From contig JABICL010000039.1 of the NCBI GenBank assembly GCA_018652265.1, positions 7,287-71,286 of the forward strand: DNA of 64,000 bases, given 5' to 3'. The position numbers were made by a program, and so were the translations under genes. This DNA is from Candidatus Peribacteria bacterium. GTDB lineage: Bacteria > Patescibacteriota > Gracilibacteria > Peribacterales > Peribacteraceae. This document shows, one piece after another, positions 26,281 through 62,833 of the stretch. Within the stretch, counting starts at the first letter, position 1. Every line of letters begins with the position of its first letter. Under the pieces are notes generated by a model. The model searched no databases, was not told the origin of the DNA, and was given only the letters and a program-made list of their open reading frames with translations.

Positions 26281-26424
26281 AGTGGTTAGTGACTATGCTT
26301 CGACTCGCACTTCGACTCGTAGAACTTAAGCATCGCGACTTCGTCGCTCCGCTTCAAGTTCAACTCGCTCAGTACGGCTCAGCATGACATATTCATCACA
26401 ACTACCCACTACTCACTAACCACT
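26281..26424 (-). repeat. Family B repeat copy B2 (26295-26390) enclosed by a perfect 12-bp inverted repeat
   Basis: AGTGGTTAGTGA (26281-26292) and TCACTAACCACT (26413-26424) bracket the reverse-oriented B copy ATGCTTCGACTCGCACTTCG...GCTCAGCATGACAT. Confidence 0.85.
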
Positions 26425-26486
26425 AACTACTTGTTATTAACTTCTTTTTATTATCTCAATCTTACCTCTCCTGCTACAATCTCCCT

Positions 26487-28259
26487 ATGTGTGGAATCTT
26501 TGGTTATGTAGGAAATAGAAAGGATGCAGGACGCATCGTAGTTCGTGGCATAAAGAGCCTAGAATACAGAGGATACGATTCTTGGGGAGTAGCTAGAATG
26601 ATTGATGGAGATATTTTTATAGAAAAAAATGTAGGAAAGATTGGAGGAGTAAATCCAGAATCATTTTCTGAACTTAGCAGTATAGCGATCGCTCATACGC
26701 GTTGGGCAACACACGGTGGAGTAACAAAAGAAAATGCTCACCCTCATATTTCTTGTGATAAGAAAATTTCAGTAGTTCACAATGGAATCATAGAAAATTA
26801 CCAAGAGCTTAGAGAGGAGCTAAAAAACAAAGGTCATACATTCACATCCGAAACAGACACAGAAATCATATGTCATATGATCGCAGAGAATCTAAAAACC
26901 AGTAAGGATCTTCCAGAGGCAGTTAGAATTACATGTCAGAGATTTGAAGGTCGTTACGGATTTCTTATTATAAACACTGAAACAAATGAGCTAATAGCAG
27001 CTCGAACAGGATCTCCACTTATTGTAGGAAGAGGAGAAGATGAAACCTTCATAGCTTCAGATATTCCTGCATTCATGGAGCACACAAAAACTGTAAATTA
27101 CATAGACGATGGAGAAATGGTAATAACAGACGGAAAAGAAACTCGTTTCTATGAAATAAATTCAGGCAAAGAAATAGATAAAAGAAATGTAGAAATCACT
27201 CTGGATATAGAGGAAGCAAAGAAGGGTGAATACGAGCACTTCATGTTAAAAGAAATAATGGATCAGAAAGATACTATTGCTAGAGCAGTGAACCAAGACG
27301 AAGAACAGATTCAAACAATTGCAAATGCTATTCGCGATGCCCAAGGAACATTCTTATCTGCCTGCGGAACTGCCGGAAAGGTTTGTATGGCATCTGAGTA
27401 CTTCTTCTCTGTAGTTGCAGAGAAACATGTAAATTTCACTCCAGCATCTGAGTTTCCTATATACCATCATTTCTTGGTGCCAGAGAGTTTGCTTATTGTG
27501 GTCTCACAAAGTGGAGAAACTGCAGACGTACTAGAAGCTATGAAAGTCGCAAAGTCTAAGAGGGCAAAGGTTCTCGCAGTAGTAAACTCAGAAGGATCTA
27601 CGATAGATAGAGAAGCAGATTACACATTGCTTATAAATGCAGGCCCAGAACGAGCTGTAGCCTCCACAAAAGCTGCTACAGGACAAATGGCAGTTATGCT
27701 TCTGGTTGCTTATGCACTTGCAGATAAACTAAACGAGGGAAGGGCAGTGCTGCTAGAAACTGCTTCTATGATTAATGACATGTTGAATCCTAGATATATG
27801 GAACACGTATCTGGAATCGCGGAAAATATAAAAGAAGAAGAGAACGTATACATAATAGGAAAAAGTTGGAATTATCCTATGGCACTAGAAAGTGCTATAA
27901 AAATTCAAGAAGTAAGTTATGTTCATGCAGAAGGATTTGCAGGCGGAGAACTTAAACATGGTCCTATAGCTTTGATCCAAAAAGGAACTCCTTGTATTGC
28001 ACTGATCGGTAATGATGAAACCAAAATGGACACTCTAAGTAATACCATAGAACTAAAAGCCAGAGGTGCTCACATAATAGGAGTAGCACCAGAAAATAAT
28101 GAAGTTTTCGATGAATGGATAAAAGTACCAGATGCAGAAACTGCTCAGGCAATAGTAAACATAATTCCTATCCAAGTCCTCGCATATTATCTCGCAATTA
28201 AACGAGGTAAAGATCCGGATATGCCAAGGAATTTGGCGAAGAGTGTGACGGTTAAATAG
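26487..28259 (+). CDS. glmS: Glutamine--fructose-6-phosphate aminotransferase
   Basis: MCGIFGYVG Ntn start, two SIS domains, and the C-terminal LAKSVTVK. A TACAAT -10 box sits 6 nt before the ATG. Confidence 0.95.
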   Translation: MCGIFGYVGNRKDAGRIVVRGIKSLEYRGYDSWGVARMIDGDIFIEKNVGKIGGVNPESFSELSSIAIAHTRWATHGGVTKENAHPHISCDKKISVVHNGIIENYQELREELKNKGHTFTSETDTEIICHMIAENLKTSKDLPEAVRITCQRFEGRYGFLIINTETNELIAARTGSPLIVGRGEDETFIASDIPAFMEHTKTVNYIDDGEMVITDGKETRFYEINSGKEIDKRNVEITLDIEEAKKGEYEHFMLKEIMDQKDTIARAVNQDEEQIQTIANAIRDAQGTFLSACGTAGKVCMASEYFFSVVAEKHVNFTPASEFPIYHHFLVPESLLIVVSQSGETADVLEAMKVAKSKRAKVLAVVNSEGSTIDREADYTLLINAGPERAVASTKAATGQMAVMLLVAYALADKLNEGRAVLLETASMINDMLNPRYMEHVSGIAENIKEEENVYIIGKSWNYPMALESAIKIQEVSYVHAEGFAGGELKHGPIALIQKGTPCIALIGNDETKMDTLSNTIELKARGAHIIGVAPENNEVFDEWIKVPDAETAQAIVNIIPIQVLAYYLAIKRGKDPDMPRNLAKSVTVK

Positions 28260-28367
28260 GTATTTTAGGTACATTAGGTATCGTAGGTAATGTAGGCAGA
28301 ATTTAATTCGTCGTATTAAATTTGTACCTAAATTACTTAAAGTACCTAAGATACATAAAATACCTAA
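28257..28367. repeat. T1: ~110-bp palindrome built from 5 x TAGGTAnnn and 5 x TACCTAnnn units at a 9-bp period
   Basis: TAGG(T/C)A starts at 28257, 28266, 28275, 28284 and 28293. TAC(C/T/A)TA starts at 28325, 28334, 28343, 28352 and 28361. The arms are about 75-80% complementary. The first unit contains the glmS stop codon. Confidence 0.9.
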
Positions 28368-28423
28368 CACGAGCAGGTCGAACCAGTCTGCCTTTCGGCA
28401 GACCGGCTCTTCGCGAATCTCAC
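28364..28423 (-). CDS. Candidate mini-ORF 1 inside the 3' element (19 aa, MRFAKSRSAERQTGSTCSC)
   Basis: GGAGG is 6 nt upstream of a GTG start. The equivalent SD+start+short ORF is present in all three element copies. Coding status is unproven. Confidence 0.25.
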   Translation of the reverse strand: MRFAKSRSAERQTGSTCSC

Positions 28424-28478
28424 GTTTAGCCTCCTTCCTTTGGCTAAGGATTCACGACAGTGTTCACATGTGTTTCGG
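28366..28478 (-). repeat. STAS-unit 3' structured element, copy 1
   Basis: Minus strand: CACATGTG, CGTGAATC, [TTAGCC-loop with GGAGG-GGCTAA], GAGATTCGCG, CCGGTCTGCC-GAAA-GGCAGACTGG, TTCGACCTG. About 90% identical to copy 2. Confidence 0.85.
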
Positions 28479-28844
28479 CTAGAATTCCAGCAACGCCACT
28501 TCGCGATTTTCGTGGATATCGAAAGTAAGATATAGCTTTGTAGCCTTGAAGAGACCTGCGTAGACATCTTCAGAAATTCCGCAAAGTTTGAGATTCTTTG
28601 CTGAGCTTGTTACCCTCTCCAGCTTTTTTTGCAGGGTCATCAGCTTGCCAATAAACACACTGCTTGTTTGCTGAATCACAGAGAAATCGATCAACACTTT
28701 CCTTTTGCCATCCTTCTCAACTAGGGCAAATAGTCTTTCTCCAGCATGGAGAATGAGCGTCTCGTTCGTGAGCTGCTCTGCAGCAGGAGTGACAACTGTC
28801 ACACCATCCACATCTTCAACTTGCAATTCCGCTGTTTCTTTCAT
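28479..28844 (-). CDS. STAS-domain protein (anti-sigma-factor-antagonist-like), paralog 1
   Basis: 121 aa from MKETAELQVEDVDGVTVV. KVLIDFSVIQQTSSVFIGKL resembles the SpoIIAA DxS...S motif. SD GGAGTGGAG upstream. The longer ORF start at 28886 lies in the conserved leader. Confidence 0.7.
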   Translation of the reverse strand: MKETAELQVEDVDGVTVVTPAAEQLTNETLILHAGERLFALVEKDGKRKVLIDFSVIQQTSSVFIGKLMTLQKKLERVTSSAKNLKLCGISEDVYAGLFKATKLYLTFDIHENREVALLEF

Positions 28845-29054
28845 CGCTCCACTCCGTTTACAAGGATCAAAAATGTCCCCCGACACATGTTCACTACAAG
28901 TAGTAAGTCACTATGAAAGCCAAAAATCAATCAGAATCGGGGTAATTTTACACAGGTCGAACCAGCCTGCCTTTCGGCAGACCGGCTCCTTGTGAATCTC
29001 ACGTTTAGCCTCCTTTCTTTGGCTAAGGATTCACGGATTGTCACATGTGTTTTA
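28845..29054 (-). repeat. Conserved inter-STAS scaffold (leader of paralog 1 plus 3' element copy 2)
   Basis: The 3' element is at 28945-29054. The leader core GTGACTTACTACTTGTAGTGAACATGTG and TTGATTTTTGG are shared with 29418-29636. Confidence 0.85.
28931..29002 (-). CDS. Candidate mini-ORF 2 (23 aa, MRFTRSRSAERQAGSTCVKLPRF)
   Basis: GGAGG, then CTAAAC, then a GTG start. Same position as mini-ORF 1. Confidence 0.25.
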   Translation of the reverse strand: MRFTRSRSAERQAGSTCVKLPRF

Positions 29055-29417
29055 CTAGAAGTCGACGAGAGCGTCTTCACGATTACCATCAAAGACGTCG
29101 AAAAACTGTACAAGATTGGTCATTGTGAAGACTTCAAAAACATCTCGCTTCATTCCACAGAACCTCATTTTTCGTGGCTGACCCCGAACCCATTTCTTAC
29201 TGATATTCATCAACATACCAAGGGCAGGGGAACTAGGAAATTCCATATTGCAGAAATCAACCAGAACCTTATTAGCCCCTTCTTCAAACACCGCAGTGAG
29301 CACCGTCCTGACTGACCCGGTCTGTTCGGATCCAAGGAATTGTGGATCCATTATGGTCAATACGGAAACTCCTCCTACCACTTCAACATTGGGTTCAGTA
29401 CTTTGTGTTGGATCCAT
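29055..29417 (-). CDS. STAS-domain protein, paralog 2
   Basis: 120 aa from MDPTQSTEPNVEVVGGVSVLTI. KVLVDFCNMEFPSSPALGML motif. SD AAGGAGTG upstream. Confidence 0.65.
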   Translation of the reverse strand: MDPTQSTEPNVEVVGGVSVLTIMDPQFLGSEQTGSVRTVLTAVFEEGANKVLVDFCNMEFPSSPALGMLMNISKKWVRGQPRKMRFCGMKRDVFEVFTMTNLVQFFDVFDGNREDALVDF

Positions 29418-29636
29418 CTCTCTACACTCCTTTGAAGGAACGATTCGAATATTTTGCACACATGTGCACTATCAAATAGTAAGTCACTCTGAAAGGCAAA
29501 AATCAATCATTATCATGATAATTTTACACAGGTCGAACCGGCCTCCCTGTAACAGGAAGCCGGTTTTTCGTGAATCTCATATGCCACCTCCTTTCGGGTT
29601 GGTTGGGATTCACGGATGTTCACATGTGTTTCGGAG
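29418..29636 (-). repeat. Conserved inter-STAS scaffold (leader of paralog 2 plus 3' element copy 3)
   Basis: The 3' element is at 29524-29636, with the hairpins kept but their sequence changed: CCGGCTTCCTG-TTAC-AGGGAGGCCGG, and CCAACC..GGTGG replacing TTAGCC..GGCTAA. Confidence 0.85.
29524..29580 (-). CDS. Candidate mini-ORF 3 (18 aa, MRFTKNRLPVTGRPVRPV)
   Basis: GGAGG, then TGGCAT, then an ATG start. Only the first ~7 residues are shared with mini-ORFs 1 and 2. Confidence 0.25.
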   Translation of the reverse strand: MRFTKNRLPVTGRPVRPV

Positions 29637-29981
29637 CTAGAAGCCCTCGAGGGCTTCTTCGAGCGTGTCGAAGATGTCGAAGAGCCTGTTTAGCAGGCTG
29701 ATAGTAAAGACTTCAAGTGGCTGGCCAGAAATGCAACAAAATCTTAGTCTACTTTTTGCGTTTTTCGCCCTCTTATTCATTGTAGTGAACTTGCTAAGCG
29801 CTGCAGTATGCAGATACTTGACATTCGAAAAATCTAATATTATTTTCTTTCTTCCATCCTCATCAACGAGACCAAACATTTGATTTCCCATGATTTGAAT
29901 GTTGCCCTCGTCCATAATCTTTTCATCCACAAATTTCACGACAGTCACGCCACCAATTTCCTCGATTTCTATTCTTCGCAT
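29637..29981 (-). CDS. STAS-domain protein, paralog 3
   Basis: 114 aa from MRRIEIEEIGGVTVVKFV. KIILDFSNVKYLHTAALSKF motif. SD ACGGAGTGG upstream. Confidence 0.7.
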   Translation of the reverse strand: MRRIEIEEIGGVTVVKFVDEKIMDEGNIQIMGNQMFGLVDEDGRKKIILDFSNVKYLHTAALSKFTTMNKRAKNAKSRLRFCCISGQPLEVFTISLLNRLFDIFDTLEEALEGF

Positions 29982-30070
29982 TTCAACCACTCCGTTTTGA
30001 AAGGACAATTCGAATATTTCGCACACATGTGCACTACAAGTAGTAAGTCACTACTTGGCAAGTATTACAA
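29982..30070 (-). repeat. Conserved leader of STAS paralog 3
   Basis: AGTGACTTACTACTTGTAGTGCACATGTGTGCGAAATATTCGAAT...ACGGAGTGG is near-identical to the paralog 2 leader. Confidence 0.8.
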
Positions 30071-30115
30071 GAAATATCTTTGGATTCTTATTTGAAAACA
30101 TGCAAAGTATTATTA

Positions 30116-30218
30116 TAGGTATGGTAGGTATTGTACGTAATGTAGGTACAGACTTAATCCTACAAATTAAATGCTACCTACATTACCTACGATACCTACT
30201 GTACTTACAATACCTAAG
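30116..30218. repeat. T2: second 9-bp-periodic TAGGTA/TACCTA palindrome
   Basis: TA(G/C)GTA starts at 30116, 30125, 30134 and 30143. TAC(C/T)TA starts at 30175, 30184, 30193, 30202 and 30211. 30177-30198 is the exact reverse complement of 28275-28296 (22/22). It ends 2 nt before the PBP stop. Confidence 0.9.
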
Positions 30219-30220
30219 CC

Positions 30221-32749
30221 CTATTTCTCATCCGGAGGTATTCCGTAATAGTCAAACAACACCTTAGAAACCTCCTTAAATACCGGTGCAGCGGACTGGG
30301 AGCCATATTCCACAGTTCTAGGACGATCAAATTTTACTATCATTACAAATCTAGGCTTATCTACAGGAGCATATCCAGCAAAAGAGGTAATAGAAGATCC
30401 ACTTCCAGTGCTTTCATATTTACCACCAGGACCAGCTATCTGACTGGTGCCAGTTTTTCCAGCCATACGATATCCATCTACTTTTGCAGCACGAGCAAAT
30501 CCTTCATTCATACCCTTTGTAAGCATTGCAGTTACTGTTGCTGCAGCTTCTTCTGTAATTACTTGTTCCAAGGTCTTTGAATAAACTTCTTCTATAGTTC
30601 CATCCGAATCAATCCAACTATCTATTATTGTAGGCTTCACAAGCTTGCCTCCATTTGCAAGTACAGAGAAAGCAGTAACAATTTGAAGTGGAGTAGCAGA
30701 AATTCCCTGACCATAAGAAGCAGTAGCGAGCAGAGCATCACTCCATCTTCTCCAATCCAAAACATTACCTGGCTTTTCATCTTCAAGCTGAATTCCAGTT
30801 ATACGACCAAAACCAAATCTCTTTATGTAGTTTGCAAAAAGTTTCTTACCAAGTTTTCTAGAGACATGCGTCATACATGTATTTACAGAATATGAAAGAC
30901 AATCCGTCATAGTTACCTCATCGAAAACTCTATTTTCTGCATTGGCAATAATATATTCGTCTATCTCTACAGTACCTTCATCTAAGTACATATCATCTGG
31001 AGTTATCTCCCCCTGATCTATTGCTATAGACATTGTAATAGGCTTAAAAACAGATCCAGGCTCATATATTTCTTGGCTAATACGATTTATATAAGCACCC
31101 ACTCCTATGCGATTTTTATATCTAAGCCAGTGATAATCTCCATCATTTCCACGCTCTAGGAATAGTTCGAAACGATTATTTTCACCTGTATATAAGAAAT
31201 ATCTCTTCAAATCATCTATGTCATAGTACTTCTCTAAATCTAGTAGCTCTTCCTGAAGCTCTCGACTCAAATGAACACGCCCCTCAGGAGTTGCATCATT
31301 CAAATATCCTCTCATTACCAGATCATTAGTTTCTGGATCTGCTATCTCTACTACTATGCTTGGGATCAAATCATCTGGAATATCGTAAGGCTCTTTTTTA
31401 AAAACCAAACTATAATTATTTGCATCCACAAGTGGAGCATTTGCAGCAACTATTATTCTGCCCGTAGAAGGATCCATTACAATTACTTGTCCACTATCTG
31501 CTTCGAACTCATCTACAGCTGCAGAAAGAATATTTTCTACTTTCTTTTGCAAAAATCTATCTATAGTTAGGATTACGCTTCTTCCATCCAAAGCATGGAT
31601 TATACTTTGATCATCTGAAACTATTTGTCCTCCAAAAGGATCAGTAAGCGCACTTATACGACCTTCTTGACCACGTAGATCATGATCGAAAGTTCTCTCT
31701 ATTCCATTTTGCGGTTGCTGATTAATATTTAAAAATCCTGCAATCTGAGATGCTACAGTTCCATCTGGATATATTCTCCAATGTTCAGGAATAAGTGCTA
31801 TTCCACGCAATGGATCATAAATATTATTTGCCGTTTCTTTATCTCCTCTTTTTATAAGCTCCTTTCTCTGCTGCGCAGTACGTTCTATTGATTCTTTCTT
31901 AAGCGATTTTATCCTCTTGGAAAACTCTGGCTTTATCCTTCTCATTATAGGTACATATCTAAGCCTTCTTTTTACTAATCTCTCTCGTATAAATTCAGGT
32001 TCAAGTGCAAGTGATGGAGAAATAATTTTTGCAATTCTGTGACGTTCATACTGAGGAATATGAACCGGATTCGCATACACAAGTTTACTGTTTTCTGATG
32101 CATAAATACCTGGTATACCAAACTCTTGAATTTTTCTTACCTGAACTTTGTTTGCTCCATACAAAAGCGGAATAAAAGATACAAACTCTTCATTTATTCT
32201 TTTAAAAATATCATTTGAAAATTGACCTCTTATTGTTTCTATAGGAAGTATAATTCTATTATTTGATTCACCTTCATCAGATTCGTTTATCTGATTATTT
32301 ATTTCTTTTAGAGGATCAAAGGCTGACTCATAGTACTCGCGAAGTTCGCGTGGACAATCTTTGTCTCCCTCTCTACACAGATTGTCATATTCTGTTATAA
32401 GTAATTCTTCTGCAAGAAGTCTCGAAACTGTACTCTTGTCATCCGTCACAAACGGATCTACATATAAAAGATCGAGAGTTGTATTTGTAGCCAAGATATT
32501 CAATTCATTTGTTTTGCTATTTCTACTAAGAATTTCACCTCTTTTAGCAGGAAGAACAATACCTCCGAAATGCTGTGCGCGAGCTATTTCCTCATATTCT
32601 GCTCCACGTATGATTTGTAGTTCTATAAGCCTTGCTACTATCACCAGAAGTATCACAAGCAAGATTCCATGAACTATCTCTATTCTACGCGAAAACATGC
32701 GCTTTCTATGCGTATCACTCACCTGGGAAGTAGTGCGATATCTCGCCAT
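30221..32749 (-). CDS. Class B penicillin-binding protein (PBP2/FtsI-type transpeptidase)
   Basis: Start set at MARYRTT, before the TM helix. SxxK (SVFK), SxN (SVN) and KTG (KTGTS) motifs. Long insertion-rich N-terminal module. Confidence 0.85.
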   Translation of the reverse strand: MARYRTTSQVSDTHRKRMFSRRIEIVHGILLVILLVIVARLIELQIIRGAEYEEIARAQHFGGIVLPAKRGEILSRNSKTNELNILATNTTLDLLYVDPFVTDDKSTVSRLLAEELLITEYDNLCREGDKDCPRELREYYESAFDPLKEINNQINESDEGESNNRIILPIETIRGQFSNDIFKRINEEFVSFIPLLYGANKVQVRKIQEFGIPGIYASENSKLVYANPVHIPQYERHRIAKIISPSLALEPEFIRERLVKRRLRYVPIMRRIKPEFSKRIKSLKKESIERTAQQRKELIKRGDKETANNIYDPLRGIALIPEHWRIYPDGTVASQIAGFLNINQQPQNGIERTFDHDLRGQEGRISALTDPFGGQIVSDDQSIIHALDGRSVILTIDRFLQKKVENILSAAVDEFEADSGQVIVMDPSTGRIIVAANAPLVDANNYSLVFKKEPYDIPDDLIPSIVVEIADPETNDLVMRGYLNDATPEGRVHLSRELQEELLDLEKYYDIDDLKRYFLYTGENNRFELFLERGNDGDYHWLRYKNRIGVGAYINRISQEIYEPGSVFKPITMSIAIDQGEITPDDMYLDEGTVEIDEYIIANAENRVFDEVTMTDCLSYSVNTCMTHVSRKLGKKLFANYIKRFGFGRITGIQLEDEKPGNVLDWRRWSDALLATASYGQGISATPLQIVTAFSVLANGGKLVKPTIIDSWIDSDGTIEEVYSKTLEQVITEEAAATVTAMLTKGMNEGFARAAKVDGYRMAGKTGTSQIAGPGGKYESTGSGSSITSFAGYAPVDKPRFVMIVKFDRPRTVEYGSQSAAPVFKEVSKVLFDYYGIPPDEK

Positions 32750-33911: not shown

Positions 33912-33934
33912 GTTAATTTTCAATTTTCATTCAA
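33912..33934. repeat. Left inverted repeat bracketing the four-helix-bundle gene
   Basis: GTTAATTTTCAATTTTCATTCAA. Its reverse complement is found at 34406-34442. Confidence 0.85.
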
Positions 33935-33959
33935 ATTTCAATATATAATTTCCAAACTT

Positions 33960-34346
33960 CTACTCAGATGGTTTTAAGGATGAAGTAATTTTTTGAAAAA
34001 TTAATGTTAGCTCTTGGCATTCTTGCCATAATTTACGAATTTCCTGTTTTTTCTCCGGAACTGCTGCTGCTAGCATACGAAGATGATGTTTTGTCTCTTG
34101 ACATTCTTTCTTTGCAATATGAATCTTATTACGAAAATCTTTTTTGGAACTTGCACCATTTGCCTCCATGTAATTAGCACCAATACTCGTCGCAGAACCA
34201 ACAATCTGATCAATTATACGACGTGTGATTACATCTTTTATAACAGATTTGCATAAATGTATTACATTTTCACCAAAAACTGCCGTTCTCTCCTCCAGAT
34301 CAAACTTTTTATCAGTTTGTGTACTCCTAGAAATCATAGGAAACAA
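33960..34346 (-). CDS. Four-helix-bundle protein (23S rRNA intervening-sequence protein family)
   Basis: 128 aa. GSATSIGANYMEANGASSKKDFRNKIHIAKKECQETKHHLRML is the family signature. Confidence 0.75.
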   Translation of the reverse strand: MFPMISRSTQTDKKFDLEERTAVFGENVIHLCKSVIKDVITRRIIDQIVGSATSIGANYMEANGASSKKDFRNKIHIAKKECQETKHHLRMLAAAVPEKKQEIRKLWQECQELTLIFQKITSSLKPSE

Positions 34347-34405
34347 TAATAGACCTTAATACTCCAAATGCAAATATTTGAACATTGCACATTGAATCTT
34401 TATCC

Positions 34406-34442
34406 TTGAATGAAAATTGAAAATTAGAAATTGAAAATTAAC
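34406..34442. repeat. Right inverted repeat bracketing the four-helix-bundle gene
   Basis: TTGAATGAAAATTGAAAATTAGAAATTGAAAATTAAC is the reverse complement of the left repeat with an internal 14-bp duplication. Confidence 0.85.
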
Positions 34443-55603: not shown

Positions 55604-55757
55604 ATCTGATCGGAGAAAATTTAAAATTTTAAATGTTAAATTTTAAAACATCTCTAAGCGTACACAGTATATTTAAAATTTAAAATTTATAATTTAAAAT
55701 TATCTCTGAAATACTAAATCTACGCAGTATTTGCCAATAAATATTATTAGCAGTTAT

Positions 55758-55798
55758 TTGACACTCCGAAATTAGCACTCTAGAATATCGAGTGCTAA
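55758..55798 (+). promoter_or_regulatory. dnaK promoter with an overlapping perfect CIRCE operator
   Basis: TTGACA (55758-55763), 17-nt spacer, TAGAAT (55781-55786). CIRCE TTAGCACTC-TAGAATATC-GAGTGCTAA at 55772-55798 matches the consensus 18/18. Confidence 0.9.
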
Positions 55799-61526: not shown

Positions 61527-61877
61527 TCAATCACTTCTTTCAGCCAAAGCCCCACCTTCTTCTATATATTTTGCCCTCTTCATTCTGGGCATAGCGAGTA
61601 TTGCAGGATCATTTTCGAATGTATCAAGTGCTTGAGCTTCTGCAATATGCATTTTTAGTATCTCTTCTGTAAGAAGTAGTTGTGATCTCTCTCTTTCCAA
61701 AGTTCTAAGCTTATATCCTTTAGTCGCATTGTAATTTTCATTAAAAAGAATAAGCAATGCAAGCACAACAATCAAAGCTCCAGTAGAAAACAAAAGAGTT
61801 ACAGTACTTGCGGTAACCATACGACCAAGCGTCTGACGTTTCTCAGGCAGGCCGGATTTTGTAGGTATTGTAGGCAA
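61527..61877 (-). CDS. FtsL-like cell-division membrane protein
   Basis: Directly downstream of rsmH. Basic N-tail, one TM, then a coiled coil. The start is uncertain: TTG at 61877 or ATG at 61820. Confidence 0.45.
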   Translation of the reverse strand: MPTIPTKSGLPEKRQTLGRMVTASTVTLLFSTGALIVVLALLILFNENYNATKGYKLRTLERERSQLLLTEEILKMHIAEAQALDTFENDPAILAMPRMKRAKYIEEGGALAERSD

Positions 61878-61888
61878 GGTATGTAATG
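61862..61888. repeat. Third, half-length T-type array (3 x 9-bp units)
   Basis: TAGGTATTG TAGGCAAGG TATGTAATG; compare the T2 left arm TAGGTATGG TAGGTATTG TACGTAATG. No TACCTA arm follows. Confidence 0.6.
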
Positions 61889-61939: not shown

Positions 61940-62833
61940 TTAGGTCTTTTTTATAATTCTCAAACGTGCACTTCTTGCACGTGGATTACTTTCTATCTCC
62001 TGTAGATTCGCTTGAACTGCCTTTTTAGTCAAGAGCTCATAGGATGGCGGACATATTGGCGCACCAGTTATAGCATCTTTCTGCGAAGTTGTGAGATTTT
62101 TGAATCTTTGCTTTACCTTGCGATCTTCTAGAGAGTGGTAGCTAATTATACCCATTCTTCCGCCTGGCCTTAAAAAATGTGGCCCCTGCTCAAGCAATTC
62201 ATCTAACGCTCCAATCTCATCATTTACTTCTATTCTGAGTGCTTGGAATATTTGTGGCAGAACTTTGTTTGCTTTCCACTTATAAACTTTTTCTACAATT
62301 TCTCTAAGGTCTGAAGTTGTTTCTATTTTTTTCGCCTCACTAATTTCCCTGGAAAGTGCATATATCTTTTCTACTTCTGCATATTCTTTGAAAATTCTTA
62401 TCAGATCATTTTCCGATGAATTATTTAGAAGAGTTGCAGCTGATATTCCTTTTGATTTATCAAATCTACAATCAAGTGAAGAGTCTCCCCGAAAACTAAA
62501 CCCTCTTTCTGGATCATCTATATGAGGAGAGCTAAGACCAAGATCTGCAAATAAAATATTACATTGTGGTAAATCCAAATCATTTATATCTCGAAAATTG
62601 GCATTAATAAATTCAATTTTTTCGCTGATCGCGGGTCGCTGATCGCGGGTCGCTGATAAGTTCTCCTCATCCGCATCCACCCCAATCAACTTTCCCTTAG
62701 CGCCTATCTTCTCCAAAAACTTCTCCGCATGCCCTCCAAGCCCAAGAGTTACATCTATTACAACCTCACCTGATTTGGGATCAAGTAGTTCTAGAGTGGG
62801 GGATAGGAGGACGGGAATATGAGTCACCGACAC
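61940..62833 (-). CDS. rsmH: 16S rRNA (cytosine1402-N4)-methyltransferase RsmH
   Basis: GTG start. HIPVLL, DVTLGLGGH and SYHSLEDR motifs. Confidence 0.9.
   Translation of the reverse strand: MSVTHIPVLLSPTLELLDPKSGEVVIDVTLGLGGHAEKFLEKIGAKGKLIGVDADEENLSATRDQRPAISEKIEFINANFRDINDLDLPQCNILFADLGLSSPHIDDPERGFSFRGDSSLDCRFDKSKGISAATLLNNSSENDLIRIFKEYAEVEKIYALSREISEAKKIETTSDLREIVEKVYKWKANKVLPQIFQALRIEVNDEIGALDELLEQGPHFLRPGGRMGIISYHSLEDRKVKQRFKNLTTSQKDAITGAPICPPSYELLTKKAVQANLQEIESNPRARSARLRIIKKT
62623..62657. repeat. GC-rich 14-bp tandem repeat (2.5 copies) inside rsmH
   Basis: CGCTGATCGCGGGT CGCTGATCGCGGGT CGCTGAT encodes LSATRDQRPAIS in the variable linker. Confidence 0.85.

What the first reader, a model, noticed from the sequence alone, without database searches (positions are those of the whole stretch)
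28257..28367. T elements: ~110-bp palindromes made of TAGGTA / TACCTA units at a strict 9-bp period, bracketing the STAS cassette
Seen in the sequence: T1 has TAGG(T/C)A at 28257, 28266, 28275, 28284 and 28293, and TAC(C/T/A)TA at 28325, 28334, 28343, 28352 and 28361. T2 (30116-30218) has TA(G/C)GTA at 30116, 30125, 30134 and 30143, and TAC(C/T)TA at 30175, 30184, 30193, 30202 and 30211. Each element is itself an imperfect hairpin with arms of about 45 bp.
In addition, 28275-28296 (TAGGTATCGTAGGTAATGTAGG) is the exact reverse complement of 30177-30198, so the cassette is bracketed by a perfect 22-bp inverted repeat. T1 begins with the glmS stop codon itself, and T2 ends 2 nt before the PBP stop.
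Inference: these could be iteron-like protein-binding arrays, since 9 bp is not the helical repeat. They could be very long bidirectional terminator or RNase III stems. They could also be the duplicated ends of an insertion or an invertible segment. A single ancestral T palindrome between glmS and the PBP gene, duplicated on cassette insertion, would explain the layout.
Basis: seen in the sequence. Interest (0 to 1): 0.7.

Follow-up and report, generated by a model that had tools for sequence, protein, structure and literature searches.

The report
Repeat-built hairpins flanking an inserted gene cassette
Two ~107-bp hairpin-forming DNA palindromes built from 9-bp TAGGTA units mark both ends of a foreign three-gene insertion in a candidate-phyla-radiation bacterium, and they resemble repeat-built inverted ends found around small inserted genes in several phyla.

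Summary

The window comes from a marine Peregrinibacteria (CPR) genome. Relatives have PBP and glmS convergent and only about 47 bp apart, with no T element and no STAS genes. T1, the three STAS units and T2 are therefore a ~1.96-kb lineage-specific insertion. No ancestral T was seen at the empty site.

T1(+) matches T2(-) at 83%, spacers included, so they are two inverted copies of one element. The STAS genes look planctomycete-derived and are GC-richer. The T elements are AT-rich. TAGGTA arrays recur in other Peregrinibacteria genomes and are absent from nine planctomycete-type STAS loci.

All five clear 23S-rRNA-IVS-protein genes examined, and two weaker ones, are flanked by inverted or palindromic arrays of 7-9-bp units. 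One is in this window. In another genome a TAGGTA-flanked gene splits secY-adk.

I read the T elements as ORF-less "foldback" members of this class. They most likely act as long RNA hairpins (RNase III substrate or 3'-end barrier) that insulate the insert. That function is inferred, not shown. No transposase is nearby, no inversion was seen, and no known family fits.

The parts
28257..28298 (+). T1 left arm: five 9-bp units, TAGGTA(ttt/cat/tcg/atg) then TAGGCA. The first TAG is the glmS stop codon.
28299..28324 (.). T1 centre. It contains an inner mini-hairpin, TTTAAT-tcgtcgt-ATTAAA.
28325..28366 (+). T1 right arm: five units, TACCTA / TACTTA / TACCTA / TACATA / TACCTA.
30116..30148 (+). T2 left arm: TAGGTA, TAGGTA, TACGTA, TAGGTA at period 9.
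30149..30174 (.). T2 centre, with an inner mini-hairpin (CTTAAT..ATTAAA) homologous to the T1 centre in inverted orientation.
30175..30216 (+). T2 right arm: five TACCTA/TACTTA units. It ends 4 nt before the PBP stop codon (30221-30223).
28368..30110 (-). The inserted cargo. It holds three tandem ~579-bp units, each with a promoter-like region containing CACATGTG palindromes, a STAS gene and a conserved ~110-nt two-hairpin element. The STAS genes are at 28479-28844, 29055-29417 and 29637-29981. GC is 0.44, against 0.38 for the window.
26487..28259 (+). glmS, the host gene on one side of the insertion. Its C-terminus (..AKSVTVK*) is conserved with relatives up to the stop codon.
30221..32749 (-). 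PBP2/FtsI-type transpeptidase, the host gene on the other side. Its homologs place the genome in Peregrinibacteria/Peribacteria.
33914..34442 (-). A second insertion of the same architecture. A 23S_rRNA_IVP gene (33960-34346) is bracketed by inverted arrays of ~8-bp units, AATTTTCA.. on the left and ..TGAAAATT on the right. The arms are 47 nt, 77% complementary and 419 nt apart. It is absent from the same gene pair in L134/L135.

Best explanation
What T1 and T2 are. They are two inverted copies of a ~107-bp ORF-less foldback element. Each arm is a tandem array of 9-bp units: a TAGGTA core plus a 3-nt spacer.

The class they belong to. Inverted or palindromic arrays of 7-9-bp units delimit small inserted genes in Peregrinibacteria, Neomarinimicrobiota, Prevotella and an IMG/VR contig. 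[quoted passage not shown]

What they do here. They form the two boundaries of a ~1.96-kb lineage-specific insertion. The cargo is three STAS genes of planctomycete-like ancestry. The insertion replaced the ~47-bp spacer between the convergent glmS and PBP genes.

How they probably work (inferred). Whichever strand is transcribed, each T folds into a ~45-bp RNA hairpin. On a long transcript T2 and T1 could instead pair with each other. Such stems would act like the terminal stems of rRNA intervening sequences or like REP hairpins. They would be RNase III substrates, 3'-exonuclease barriers or non-canonical terminators. This would uncouple transcription of the foreign cassette from the two essential flanking genes.

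Shown: the structure, the periodicity, the insertion, the inverted homology, the recurrence of the architecture, and the element's host-like composition.
Inferred: cleavage or termination at the RNA level, and derivation of the T elements from gene-carrying elements.
Unknown: how the elements move.
For: Structure and non-randomness.

Insertion:
- The contig is a Peregrinibacteria MAG.
- In relatives PBP and glmS are separated by ~47 bp. The spacer read in L134/L135 has no T and no STAS.
- The 77%-identical relative has no T after the PBP stop.
- No TAGGTA arrays occur in 74 kb of syntenic relatives.
- Both host C-termini are intact up to the stop codon.

Foreign cargo, host-like ends:
- The closest STAS3 homologs (60-67% identity) are in Gimesia and other Planctomycetaceae, next to HATPase_c_2 kinases.
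- GC is 0.44 for the cargo, 0.28-0.33 for the T elements and 0.38 for the window. The nine planctomycete-type STAS loci have no TAGGTA arrays.
- TAGGTA arrays occur in five other Peregrinibacteria/Peribacteria loci.

Recurrent bracket architecture:
- L123: secY stop, TAGGTAarg x14, IVP gene, TACCTA-type x5, adk ATG.
- The window's own IVP gene.
- L137 IVP, L014 IVP and L224 IVP, which was found by protein alone.
- Prevotella L098: a full TACCTA/TAGGTA palindrome on each side of an IVP-like ORF, the same layout as T1-cargo-T2.
- L117: two T-like palindromes about 2 kb apart.

Multi-copy family: at least 12 palindromic copies lie on contigs of similar coverage in one assembly. They favour the 3' sides of genes: 10 convergent, 8 co-directional and 4 divergent contexts.

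Precedent: IVS elements carrying an S23p ORF are bordered by terminal inverted repeats that form a 28-bp stem cut by RNase III (PMC4990558).
Against: - There are no expression, cleavage or termination data.
- Neither T is followed by a U-tract.
- The sense strand is not consistently the better-folding strand: it is more stable in 10 of 16 elements with one tie, and not for T2.
- The TAGGTA core is conserved across genera and even phyla while the spacers vary. A pure RNA-stem function does not require this; it fits a sequence-specific factor or common descent better.
- No transposase, integrase, reverse transcriptase or IVP gene lies inside the T-bracketed segment, and no mobility enzyme is found anywhere in the 64-kb window.
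- No target-site duplication was noticed.
- Copy number in this genome is unknown. Only the 64-kb window could be read, and a T-specific 24-mer found nothing in the metagenome collection.
- Two of the five clear IVP examples were ascertained through their TAGGTA arrays.
Confidence: 0.45

Rival explanations
1. DNA-level protein-binding arrays. The phased TAGGTA cores would be operator- or centromere-like sites for an oligomeric protein. Candidates are a ribbon-helix-helix-type binder of contiguous short repeats or the pentameric S23p/Avd-like protein. Such a protein would coat both ends of the insert, to silence it, insulate it or recombine it.
For: - Cores are conserved far better than spacers across genera.
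- In T1 several spacer pairs are not complementary although the cores are.
- One-armed arrays with no hairpin partner exist: L040 with 7 units, and L123 with 14 units on the left against 5 on the right.
- Most arms have about five units, and S23p proteins are pentamers of four-helix bundles (cited).
- Arrays co-occur with IVP genes in seven of seven cases.
Against: - The unit sequence differs between IVP elements (GAAAATT, GAAYTGGT, TTAGGAG, TAGGTA). One conserved binder therefore cannot explain them all.
- The only IVP gene in the window is flanked by GAAAATT arrays, not TAGGTA arrays.
- No DNA-binding gene lies in the T-bracketed segment.
- No binding data exist.
Confidence: 0.2
2. Hairpins that evolved in place. 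Replication slippage and intrastrand template switching would have grown ordinary intergenic hairpins into repeat-built palindromes. These fill the spacers and serve as non-canonical bidirectional terminators. On this view there is no mobility and no special relation to insertions.
For: - Unit numbers differ between arms and between copies, as expected for slippage.
- Solitary T-like palindromes fill short spacers between ordinary housekeeping genes, for example PPIase/gltX and UDG/next gene.
- Canonical terminators are not enriched in this genome (13 found, 11.1 expected), so another 3'-end signal may be needed.
- Host stop codons fuse with the first unit, at glmS here and in L218.
Against: - T1 and T2 share spacer sequences and loop sequence at 83%. 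They are copies of each other, not independent growths.
- They flank exactly the lineage-specific DNA.
- The same bracket recurs around inserted IVP genes in conserved gene pairs such as secY-adk.
Confidence: 0.2
3. Invertible (phase-variable) segment. The 106-bp inverted repeats would mediate flipping of the STAS cassette.
For: Inverted repeats of 106 nt, 83% complementary and containing a perfect 22-mer, flank 1.75 kb.
Against: - Ten contigs from independent assemblies align collinearly with the window region at 99.9-100%.
- All nine loci shown for the identical PBP that extend past T2 carry the cassette in the same gene order.
- No invertase or recombinase gene is in the window.
- Each STAS gene has its own promoter-like region inside the segment, so flipping would not switch expression.
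Confidence: 0.03
4. Coding or guide-RNA readings. Either the arrays encode small (GxxGxx)n / (YLx)n peptides, or they are CRISPR/TIGR-like guide arrays.
For: - One frame of TAGGTAnnn is open by construction, and ORFs of 70 and 105 codons run through T2(+) and T1(-).
- TIGR arrays occur in CPR bacteria.
Against: - The T1 left arm has no start codon and has a stop 2 codons upstream in that frame.
- The ORFs run antisense into conserved glmS and PBP coding sequence.
- TIGR units are 36 nt with two 8-12-nt spacers, box C/D motifs and an adjacent Nop-domain Tas gene. Here the variable part is 3 nt, and no such gene is present.
- Rfam gives only sub-threshold look-alikes of miRNA hairpins.
Confidence: 0.02

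Closest known systems
23S rRNA intervening sequences (IVS), with or without an S23p ORF (Leptospira, Coxiella, Salmonella)
   Same: - IVS elements are selfish-looking inserts of about 100-750 bp, bordered by terminal inverted repeats.
- In the transcript the repeats form a long stem that RNase III cuts (PMC4990558).
- The gene-carrying relatives of T carry the same protein family, PF05635.
- ORF-less IVSs are ~100-nt hairpins, like T (my own knowledge of the Salmonella IVS).
   Different: - T elements and their relatives sit between protein-coding genes, not in 23S rRNA.
- Their arms are tandem arrays of 7-9-bp units, which I have not seen described for IVSs.
- Here two ORF-less copies bracket unrelated cargo (STAS genes).
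- RNase III cleavage is untested.
REP/BIME and REPIN elements with RAYT (Y1) transposases
   Same: - Both are extragenic imperfect palindromes, enriched at the 3' sides of genes.
- Both are often paired in inverted orientation, are multi-copy, and are thought to stabilise or terminate transcripts.
- A RAYT-like Y1_Tnp gene flanked by inverted GC-rich hairpins occupies the very same PBP/glmS spacer in relative L133.
   Different: - REPs are 20-40 nt, GC-rich and not internally periodic. T is 107 bp, AT-rich and built of phased 9-mers.
- No Y1 transposase is present in the window.
Foldback (FB) transposons of Drosophila and other eukaryotes
   Same: Long inverted terminal arms composed of tandem short subrepeats of variable number. 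Copies exist with or without internal cargo (my own knowledge).
   Different: They are eukaryotic and kilobase-scale. This is a structural analogy only; no homology or shared enzyme is implied.
MITEs and BOX/ERIC-type small mobile repeats of bacteria
   Same: About 100-bp non-coding intergenic repeats with inverted ends, able to fold into stable RNA hairpins (reviewed in PMC3184786 and PMC2229807, listed).
   Different: No target-site duplication or parent IS was identified. The arms are internally periodic. The TAGG-type unit recurs across phyla.
Arrays of contiguous short repeats bound by small dimeric or oligomeric repressors (MetJ metboxes, omega heptads, ParR/ParG sites)
   Same: Phased 7-9-bp units in direct and inverted orientation. 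In those systems a period below the helical repeat is normal (my own knowledge).
   Different: No cognate binding protein or par/rep gene is present. T-like arrays occur at many chromosomal spacers.

Membership tests
rRNA intervening sequence (IVS) element | Terminal inverted repeats able to form a long stem around the insert | tested here: met
   T1 and T2 are 83% complementary over 106 nt, and each T is self-complementary. Flanks of the IVP genes are 77-91% complementary.
rRNA intervening sequence (IVS) element | Located inside a 23S rRNA helix | tested here: not met
   The element lies between glmS and PBP. The Rfam scan at gathering thresholds finds no rRNA in the window.
rRNA intervening sequence (IVS) element | Excision or cleavage by RNase III | not testable with these tools
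   This needs RNA ends or an enzyme assay.
REP/REPIN-RAYT | Short (20-40 nt) GC-rich palindrome; cognate Y1 (RAYT) transposase in the genome | tested here: not met
   T is 107 bp with GC 0.28-0.33. tblastn with the L133 Y1_Tnp finds nothing in the window. The rest of the genome could not be read.
MITE | Terminal inverted repeats plus a target-site duplication; many copies; a related autonomous IS | tested here: inconclusive
   Inverted ends are present. No direct repeat was noticed at the T or insert borders. Copy number in this genome is unknown: there are two full copies plus one degenerate one-armed array in 64 kb. No IS is present.
Intrinsic (Rho-independent) terminator | GC-rich stem followed by a U-tract | tested here: not met
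   The scan reports no terminator at T1 or T2. The stems are AT-rich and no T-run follows.
Integron attC site | R''/L''-L'/R' core sites (RYYYAAC..GTTRRRY) in the right order; IntI integrase; an attC after each cassette | tested here: not met
   Only chance-level, wrongly ordered core-like heptamers occur in T1 and none in T2 (read). There is no integrase. The T elements flank the whole array, not each gene.
TIGR (Tas) or CRISPR guide arrays | 36-nt (or ~60-nt) units with 8-12-nt or longer variable spacers; adjacent Tas or Cas gene | tested here: not met
   Units are 9 nt with 3 variable nt. No Nop-domain or cas gene is in the window.
Iteron or centromere-like binding array | Phased short repeats together with a cognate Rep/Par/repressor gene | tested here: inconclusive
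   Phased repeats are present. No cognate gene is nearby. Binding is untestable here.

The most novel reading that the evidence does not exclude
Inverted arrays of 7-9-bp tandem units would define an undescribed, cross-phylum class of small insertion elements (CPR, Marinimicrobia, Bacteroidota). Their typical cargo is the S23p/Avd-like pentameric protein. That protein would recognise, or help generate, the repeat-built ends. T1 and T2 would be ORF-less derivatives that have captured or delimited a horizontally acquired STAS cassette. This would also explain what the long-enigmatic 'IVS proteins' are for, and how IVS-like inserts spread outside rRNA genes.
Probability: 0.25. Interest if true: 0.8.

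Novelty: new variant of a known kind. Interest (0 to 1): 0.6.

Why it matters
CPR bacteria have tiny, tightly packed genomes. How they take up foreign genes and tolerate them between essential genes is poorly understood. Here a foreign regulatory cassette sits between glmS and a PBP with no spare nucleotides, enclosed by two repeat-built hairpins.

The same kind of repeat-built inverted ends surrounds every 23S-rRNA-IVS-protein gene I could examine, in several phyla. If that association holds, three things follow:
- It gives a sequence signature for finding such inserts.
- It gives a concrete hypothesis for the function of S23p/Avd-like proteins outside diversity-generating retroelements.
- It gives testable RNA-processing sites (RNase III) in organisms that cannot be cultured.

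If the association does not hold, the T elements are still a clean example of a lineage-typical REP-like repeat.

Tried and rejected
1. Planctomycete origin of the contig. STAS3 homologs suggested it. PBP homologs and synteny show a Peregrinibacteria genome.
2. Assembly chimera. Rejected: the junctions are identical in 10 independent contigs, and the cassette is present in the other contigs that encode the identical PBP.
3. Population variation for covariation analysis. All copies are 99.9-100% identical, so they carry no information.
4. Small-ORF reading. Rejected; see the rival explanations.
5. Y1/RAYT link. There is no Y1 gene in the window. In L047 a TAGGTAtaa array lies upstream of a RAYT-like gene, but it looks like repeated -10 boxes and is incidental.
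6. Integron attC, TIGR, CRISPR, riboswitch or other Rfam family. All were rejected.
7. RNA versus DNA function from the strand asymmetry of fold energies. The sense strand is more stable in 10 of 16 elements, which is inconclusive.
8. T-specific 24-mer in metagenome contigs. It gave 0 hits. The cassette's conserved intergenic element gave only chance-level hits in viral contigs.
9. Literature searches for TAGGTA 9-bp arrays, Peregrinibacteria palindromes, bacterial foldback elements, and IVP with tandem repeats. Nothing relevant turned up.
10. Whether TAGGTA is special among hexamers could not be tested. The window itself has AAAATTT- and GAAAATT-based examples.
Full report
1. The observation

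- T1 (28257-28366) has five TAGGTA-type hexamers at a strict 9-bp period. A 26-nt centre follows, with its own small hairpin, and then five TACCTA-type hexamers at the same period.
- T2 (30116-30216) has four TAGGTA-type and five TACCTA-type units.
- In both elements the last left unit and the first right unit start 32 nt apart.
- A three-unit pattern with up to 3 mismatches hits 13 times in the window, 12 of them in T1 or T2. The expectation from shuffles is 0.05.
- Tandem Repeats Finder gives period 9 for all four arms.
- As RNA, each element folds into a hairpin with a stem of about 45 bp on either strand. Energies are -37 to -46 kcal/mol, z-scores are -6.0 to -7.5, and none of 200 shuffles folds as well.
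- The perfect 22-bp inverted repeat is real. It is the best-preserved part of a 106-nt inverted repeat, 83% complementary. Read in direct orientation the two elements are only 70% alike.
- Spacers and loop are shared too: ttt/ttg, cat/cag, tcg/tcg, atg/atg. T1(+) and T2(-) are therefore two copies of one element in opposite orientation.
- The glmS stop codon is the first TAG of T1. The last T2 unit ends 4 nt before the PBP stop codon.

2. The organism and the locus

The window is contig JABIJO010000021.1 of MAG GCA_018655505.1. The PBP has 53-77% identical homologs, and those that carry a name are Candidatus Peregrinibacteria or Peribacteria. This is therefore a CPR bacterium.

The surrounding gene order is LGT, sortase, TsaD, PKD protein, T2SSE ATPase, PBP, glmS, signal peptidase, Pth. 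It is conserved in relatives.

In those relatives PBP and glmS are convergent and about 47 bp apart.
- The spacer in L134/L135 has no T and no STAS gene. The P0051 contig has the same 47-bp gap, but no DNA was returned for it.
- The 77%-identical relative has no T after the PBP stop, although that contig ends 51 bp later.
- None of the five syntenic relative loci (74 kb) contains a TAGGTA array.
- The C-termini of both host proteins are conserved to the last residue.

So the whole 1,961 bp between the two stop codons is a lineage-specific insertion that replaced the spacer. It comprises T1, three STAS units and T2.

The insertion is not an assembly artefact.
- The region is 99.9-100% identical and collinear in ten contigs from independent assemblies.
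- It is present in all nine loci shown for the identical PBP that extend past T2. These include a Saanich Inlet 200-m sample.

That also means there is no sign of inversion and no presence/absence polymorphism within the species.

3. The cargo is probably foreign; the ends are not

The nearest homologs of STAS3 outside the species are 60-67% identical. Those that carry a name are from Gimesia and other Planctomycetaceae. In every context examined they sit next to an RsbW-like HATPase_c_2 kinase. The cassette has no kinase.

GC content points the same way:
- cargo: 0.44
- whole window: 0.38
- T elements: 0.28-0.33

The nine planctomycete-type STAS loci contain no TAGGTA arrays. By contrast, a scan of one genome per species for three perfect phased units returned five loci from other Peregrinibacteria or Peribacteria genomes among 116. 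I judge this a clear over-representation for such a small clade, but I could not compute it.
- Three of these are T-like palindromes in short spacers between ordinary genes: PPIase/gltX, UDG/next gene, and ribH/SLH protein.
- One locus (L117) holds two such palindromes about 2 kb apart.

The T elements therefore belong to the host lineage's repertoire and did not arrive from the donor.

4. A recurrent architecture

In Peregrinibacteria locus L123 the universally adjacent genes secY and adk are split by a 23S_rRNA_IVP gene (PF05635, E = 3e-26) on the opposite strand. It is bracketed by 14 TAGGTAarg units on one side and five TACCTA-type units on the other. The arrays touch the secY stop and the adk start.

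That led me to look at every IVP gene within reach.
- The window's own IVP gene (33960-34346) is absent from the same gene pair in L134/L135. It is flanked by inverted arrays of ~8-bp AATTTTCA/TGAAAATT units, 47 nt long and 77% complementary.
- The L137 gene is flanked by inverted GAAYTGGT arrays.
- A Neomarinimicrobiota gene (L014) is flanked by about 25 TTAGGTWGA/TTGGGTTGA units and about nine inverted units.
- The one IVP gene recovered from viral contigs by protein similarity alone (L224) is flanked by inverted GAGTTAGGA/CCTAACT arrays, 32 nt long and 91% complementary.
- Two weaker IVP-like ORFs in Prevotella loci are also flanked by arrays.
- In one of these (L098) there is a complete TACCTAtag...ctaTAGGTA palindrome on each side. 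That is exactly the layout of T1-cargo-T2.

In total, five of five clear cases and two of two weak cases show the bracket. Three of the clear cases were found without reference to repeats.

In the unbiased 64-kb window, the five longest inverted repeats within 4 kb are the following:
- T1 with T2
- T1 with itself
- the IVP bracket
- an AAAATTT-based palindrome upstream of dnaK
- T2 with itself

5. Distribution beyond CPR

A scan of metagenome contigs for palindromic TAGGTA arrays returned 61 loci. They fall into several sequence classes.
- The largest class resembles the Alistipes hits of the genome scan.
- It is multi-copy within single assemblies. At least 12 copies lie on contigs of similar coverage in ERZ827168.
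- Unit numbers differ between arms.
- With crude ORF calls, these copies lie in 10 convergent, 8 co-directional and 4 divergent spacers. That is a REP-like preference for the 3' sides of genes.
- The 9-bp phasing is kept in all of them.

I could not test whether TAGGTA is commoner than other hexamers in such arrays.

6. How it most likely works

The following is shown:
- each T can form a very stable hairpin on either strand;
- T1 and T2 are complementary to each other on any transcript that spans the cassette;
- they sit exactly at the borders between host and foreign DNA.

Established knowledge supplies the precedent. IVS elements, which carry the same protein family, are bordered by inverted repeats whose stem is cut by RNase III. 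This removes the insert from the host RNA (PMC4990558). REP hairpins similarly protect or terminate transcripts.

My best-supported reading is that the T elements act at the RNA level. They would be processing sites, 3'-end barriers or non-canonical terminators that uncouple the cassette from glmS and PBP. Each STAS gene has its own conserved promoter-like region.

This genome does not show an excess of canonical terminators (13 found, 11.1 expected), so other 3'-end signals are plausible.

Evidence against a purely structural role:
- the TAGGTA core is much better conserved than the spacers;
- one-armed arrays exist;
- the transcribed strand is not consistently the better-folding one.

These points keep a protein-binding explanation alive. 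That protein could be the pentameric S23p/Avd-like protein where one is present.

How the elements move is unknown. No transposase, integrase or reverse transcriptase is in the window, and I noticed no target duplication.

In relative L133 the same PBP/glmS spacer holds a RAYT-like Y1 transposase gene between two inverted GC-rich hairpins. This convergent spacer therefore accepts insertions repeatedly.

7. Comparison with known families

- The closest functional analogue is the rRNA intervening sequence. T fails membership because it is not in rRNA, and RNase III cleavage is untested.
- It is REP-like in location and in its presumed role. It differs in size, composition, internal periodicity and the lack of a RAYT.
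- It resembles eukaryotic foldback transposons in having arms made of tandem subrepeats. That is an analogy only.
- Integron attC sites, TIGR and CRISPR arrays, intrinsic terminators and every Rfam family were tested and not met.
- I found no description of such arrays, or of their link with IVP genes, in the searchable literature.

8. Verdict

The finding is real.
- The 'ends of an insertion' reading is supported.
- The 'ancestral single T' and 'invertible segment' readings are not.
- The choice between RNA stem and protein site remains open.

I rate it a new variant of a known kind: palindromic intergenic repeats, or IVS-like inserts. It also gives a moderately novel, testable lead, the association of repeat-built inverted ends with S23p/Avd-like genes across phyla.

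Noticed in passing
window 28368-30110 (minus strand): The three STAS proteins are only 31-41% identical. The non-coding parts of the three ~579-bp units are 87-97% identical. These are a promoter-like region with CACATGTG palindromes and a ~110-nt element with two hairpins, one closed by a GAAA loop. The second hairpin shows two compensatory pairs. The best Rfam look-alike is PtaRNA1 at E = 0.08, below threshold. This points to concerted evolution or strong constraint on the intergenic RNA or DNA.
   Followed up: partly
window 29637-29981 and loci L127-L132, L221-L223: The closest STAS3 homologs outside the species (60-67% identity) are planctomycete-type. They always sit next to an RsbW-like HATPase_c_2 kinase. 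The CPR cassette has three STAS genes and no kinase, which suggests horizontal transfer of an orphan anti-sigma-antagonist module.
   Followed up: partly
window 33914-34442: A 23S_rRNA_IVP (S23p/Avd-like) gene is inserted between the T2SSE ATPase gene and the PKD-protein gene, on the opposite strand. It is bracketed by inverted ~8-bp tandem arrays. Relatives L134/L135 have the two host genes 48 bp apart.
   Followed up: yes
L133 10634-11339: In a relative with 71% PBP identity, the same PBP/glmS spacer holds a 182-aa Y1_Tnp (RAYT-like) gene. It lies between two inverted GC-rich hairpins (tgcagctctccagagctgca and cgcaggtctggagacctgcg) that differ by compensatory changes.
   Followed up: partly
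window 55610-55709 and 55772-55798: A 100-bp palindrome built of 7-bp AAAATTT/ATTTAAA units lies in the divergent priA/dnaK spacer. A perfect CIRCE operator (TTAGCACTC-N9-GAGTGCTAA) lies just upstream of dnaK.
   Followed up: no
window 61862-61885: A degenerate one-armed array (TAGGTAttgTAGGCAaggTATGTA) lies in the short spacer after the mraW gene. It overlaps the predicted start of the next minus-strand ORF.
   Followed up: no
L014 1368-2036: In a Neomarinimicrobiota genome the IVP ORF reads on through the 9-bp array. If the array is translated, the protein carries a (PNQ)n tail of about 25 repeats.
   Followed up: no
L040 4570-4640; L123 866-912; L218 5925-5935: In Peregrinibacteria from one lake metagenome the arrays abut coding boundaries with almost no spare bases. 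The sequence TACCTTCC(N)ATG lies directly before nusA and adk, with no Shine-Dalgarno-like sequence. A host stop codon TAG is supplied by the first unit, as at glmS here.
   Followed up: no
loci L163, L169, L172, L174, L188, L192, L195, L207, L208, L215, L220 (assembly ERZ827168): One Alistipes-like genome (contig coverage about 23-25x) carries at least 12 palindromic (TAGGTAnnn)n-(nnnTACCTA)n elements. The arms have unequal unit numbers and the centre has the conserved form TATAGG-N-CCTATA.
   Followed up: partly
window 26401-26453 and 62622-62657: Further short tandem repeats lie in spacers: ACTACCC/ACTAACC x4 upstream of glmS, and TCGCTGATCGCGGG x2.6.
   Followed up: no
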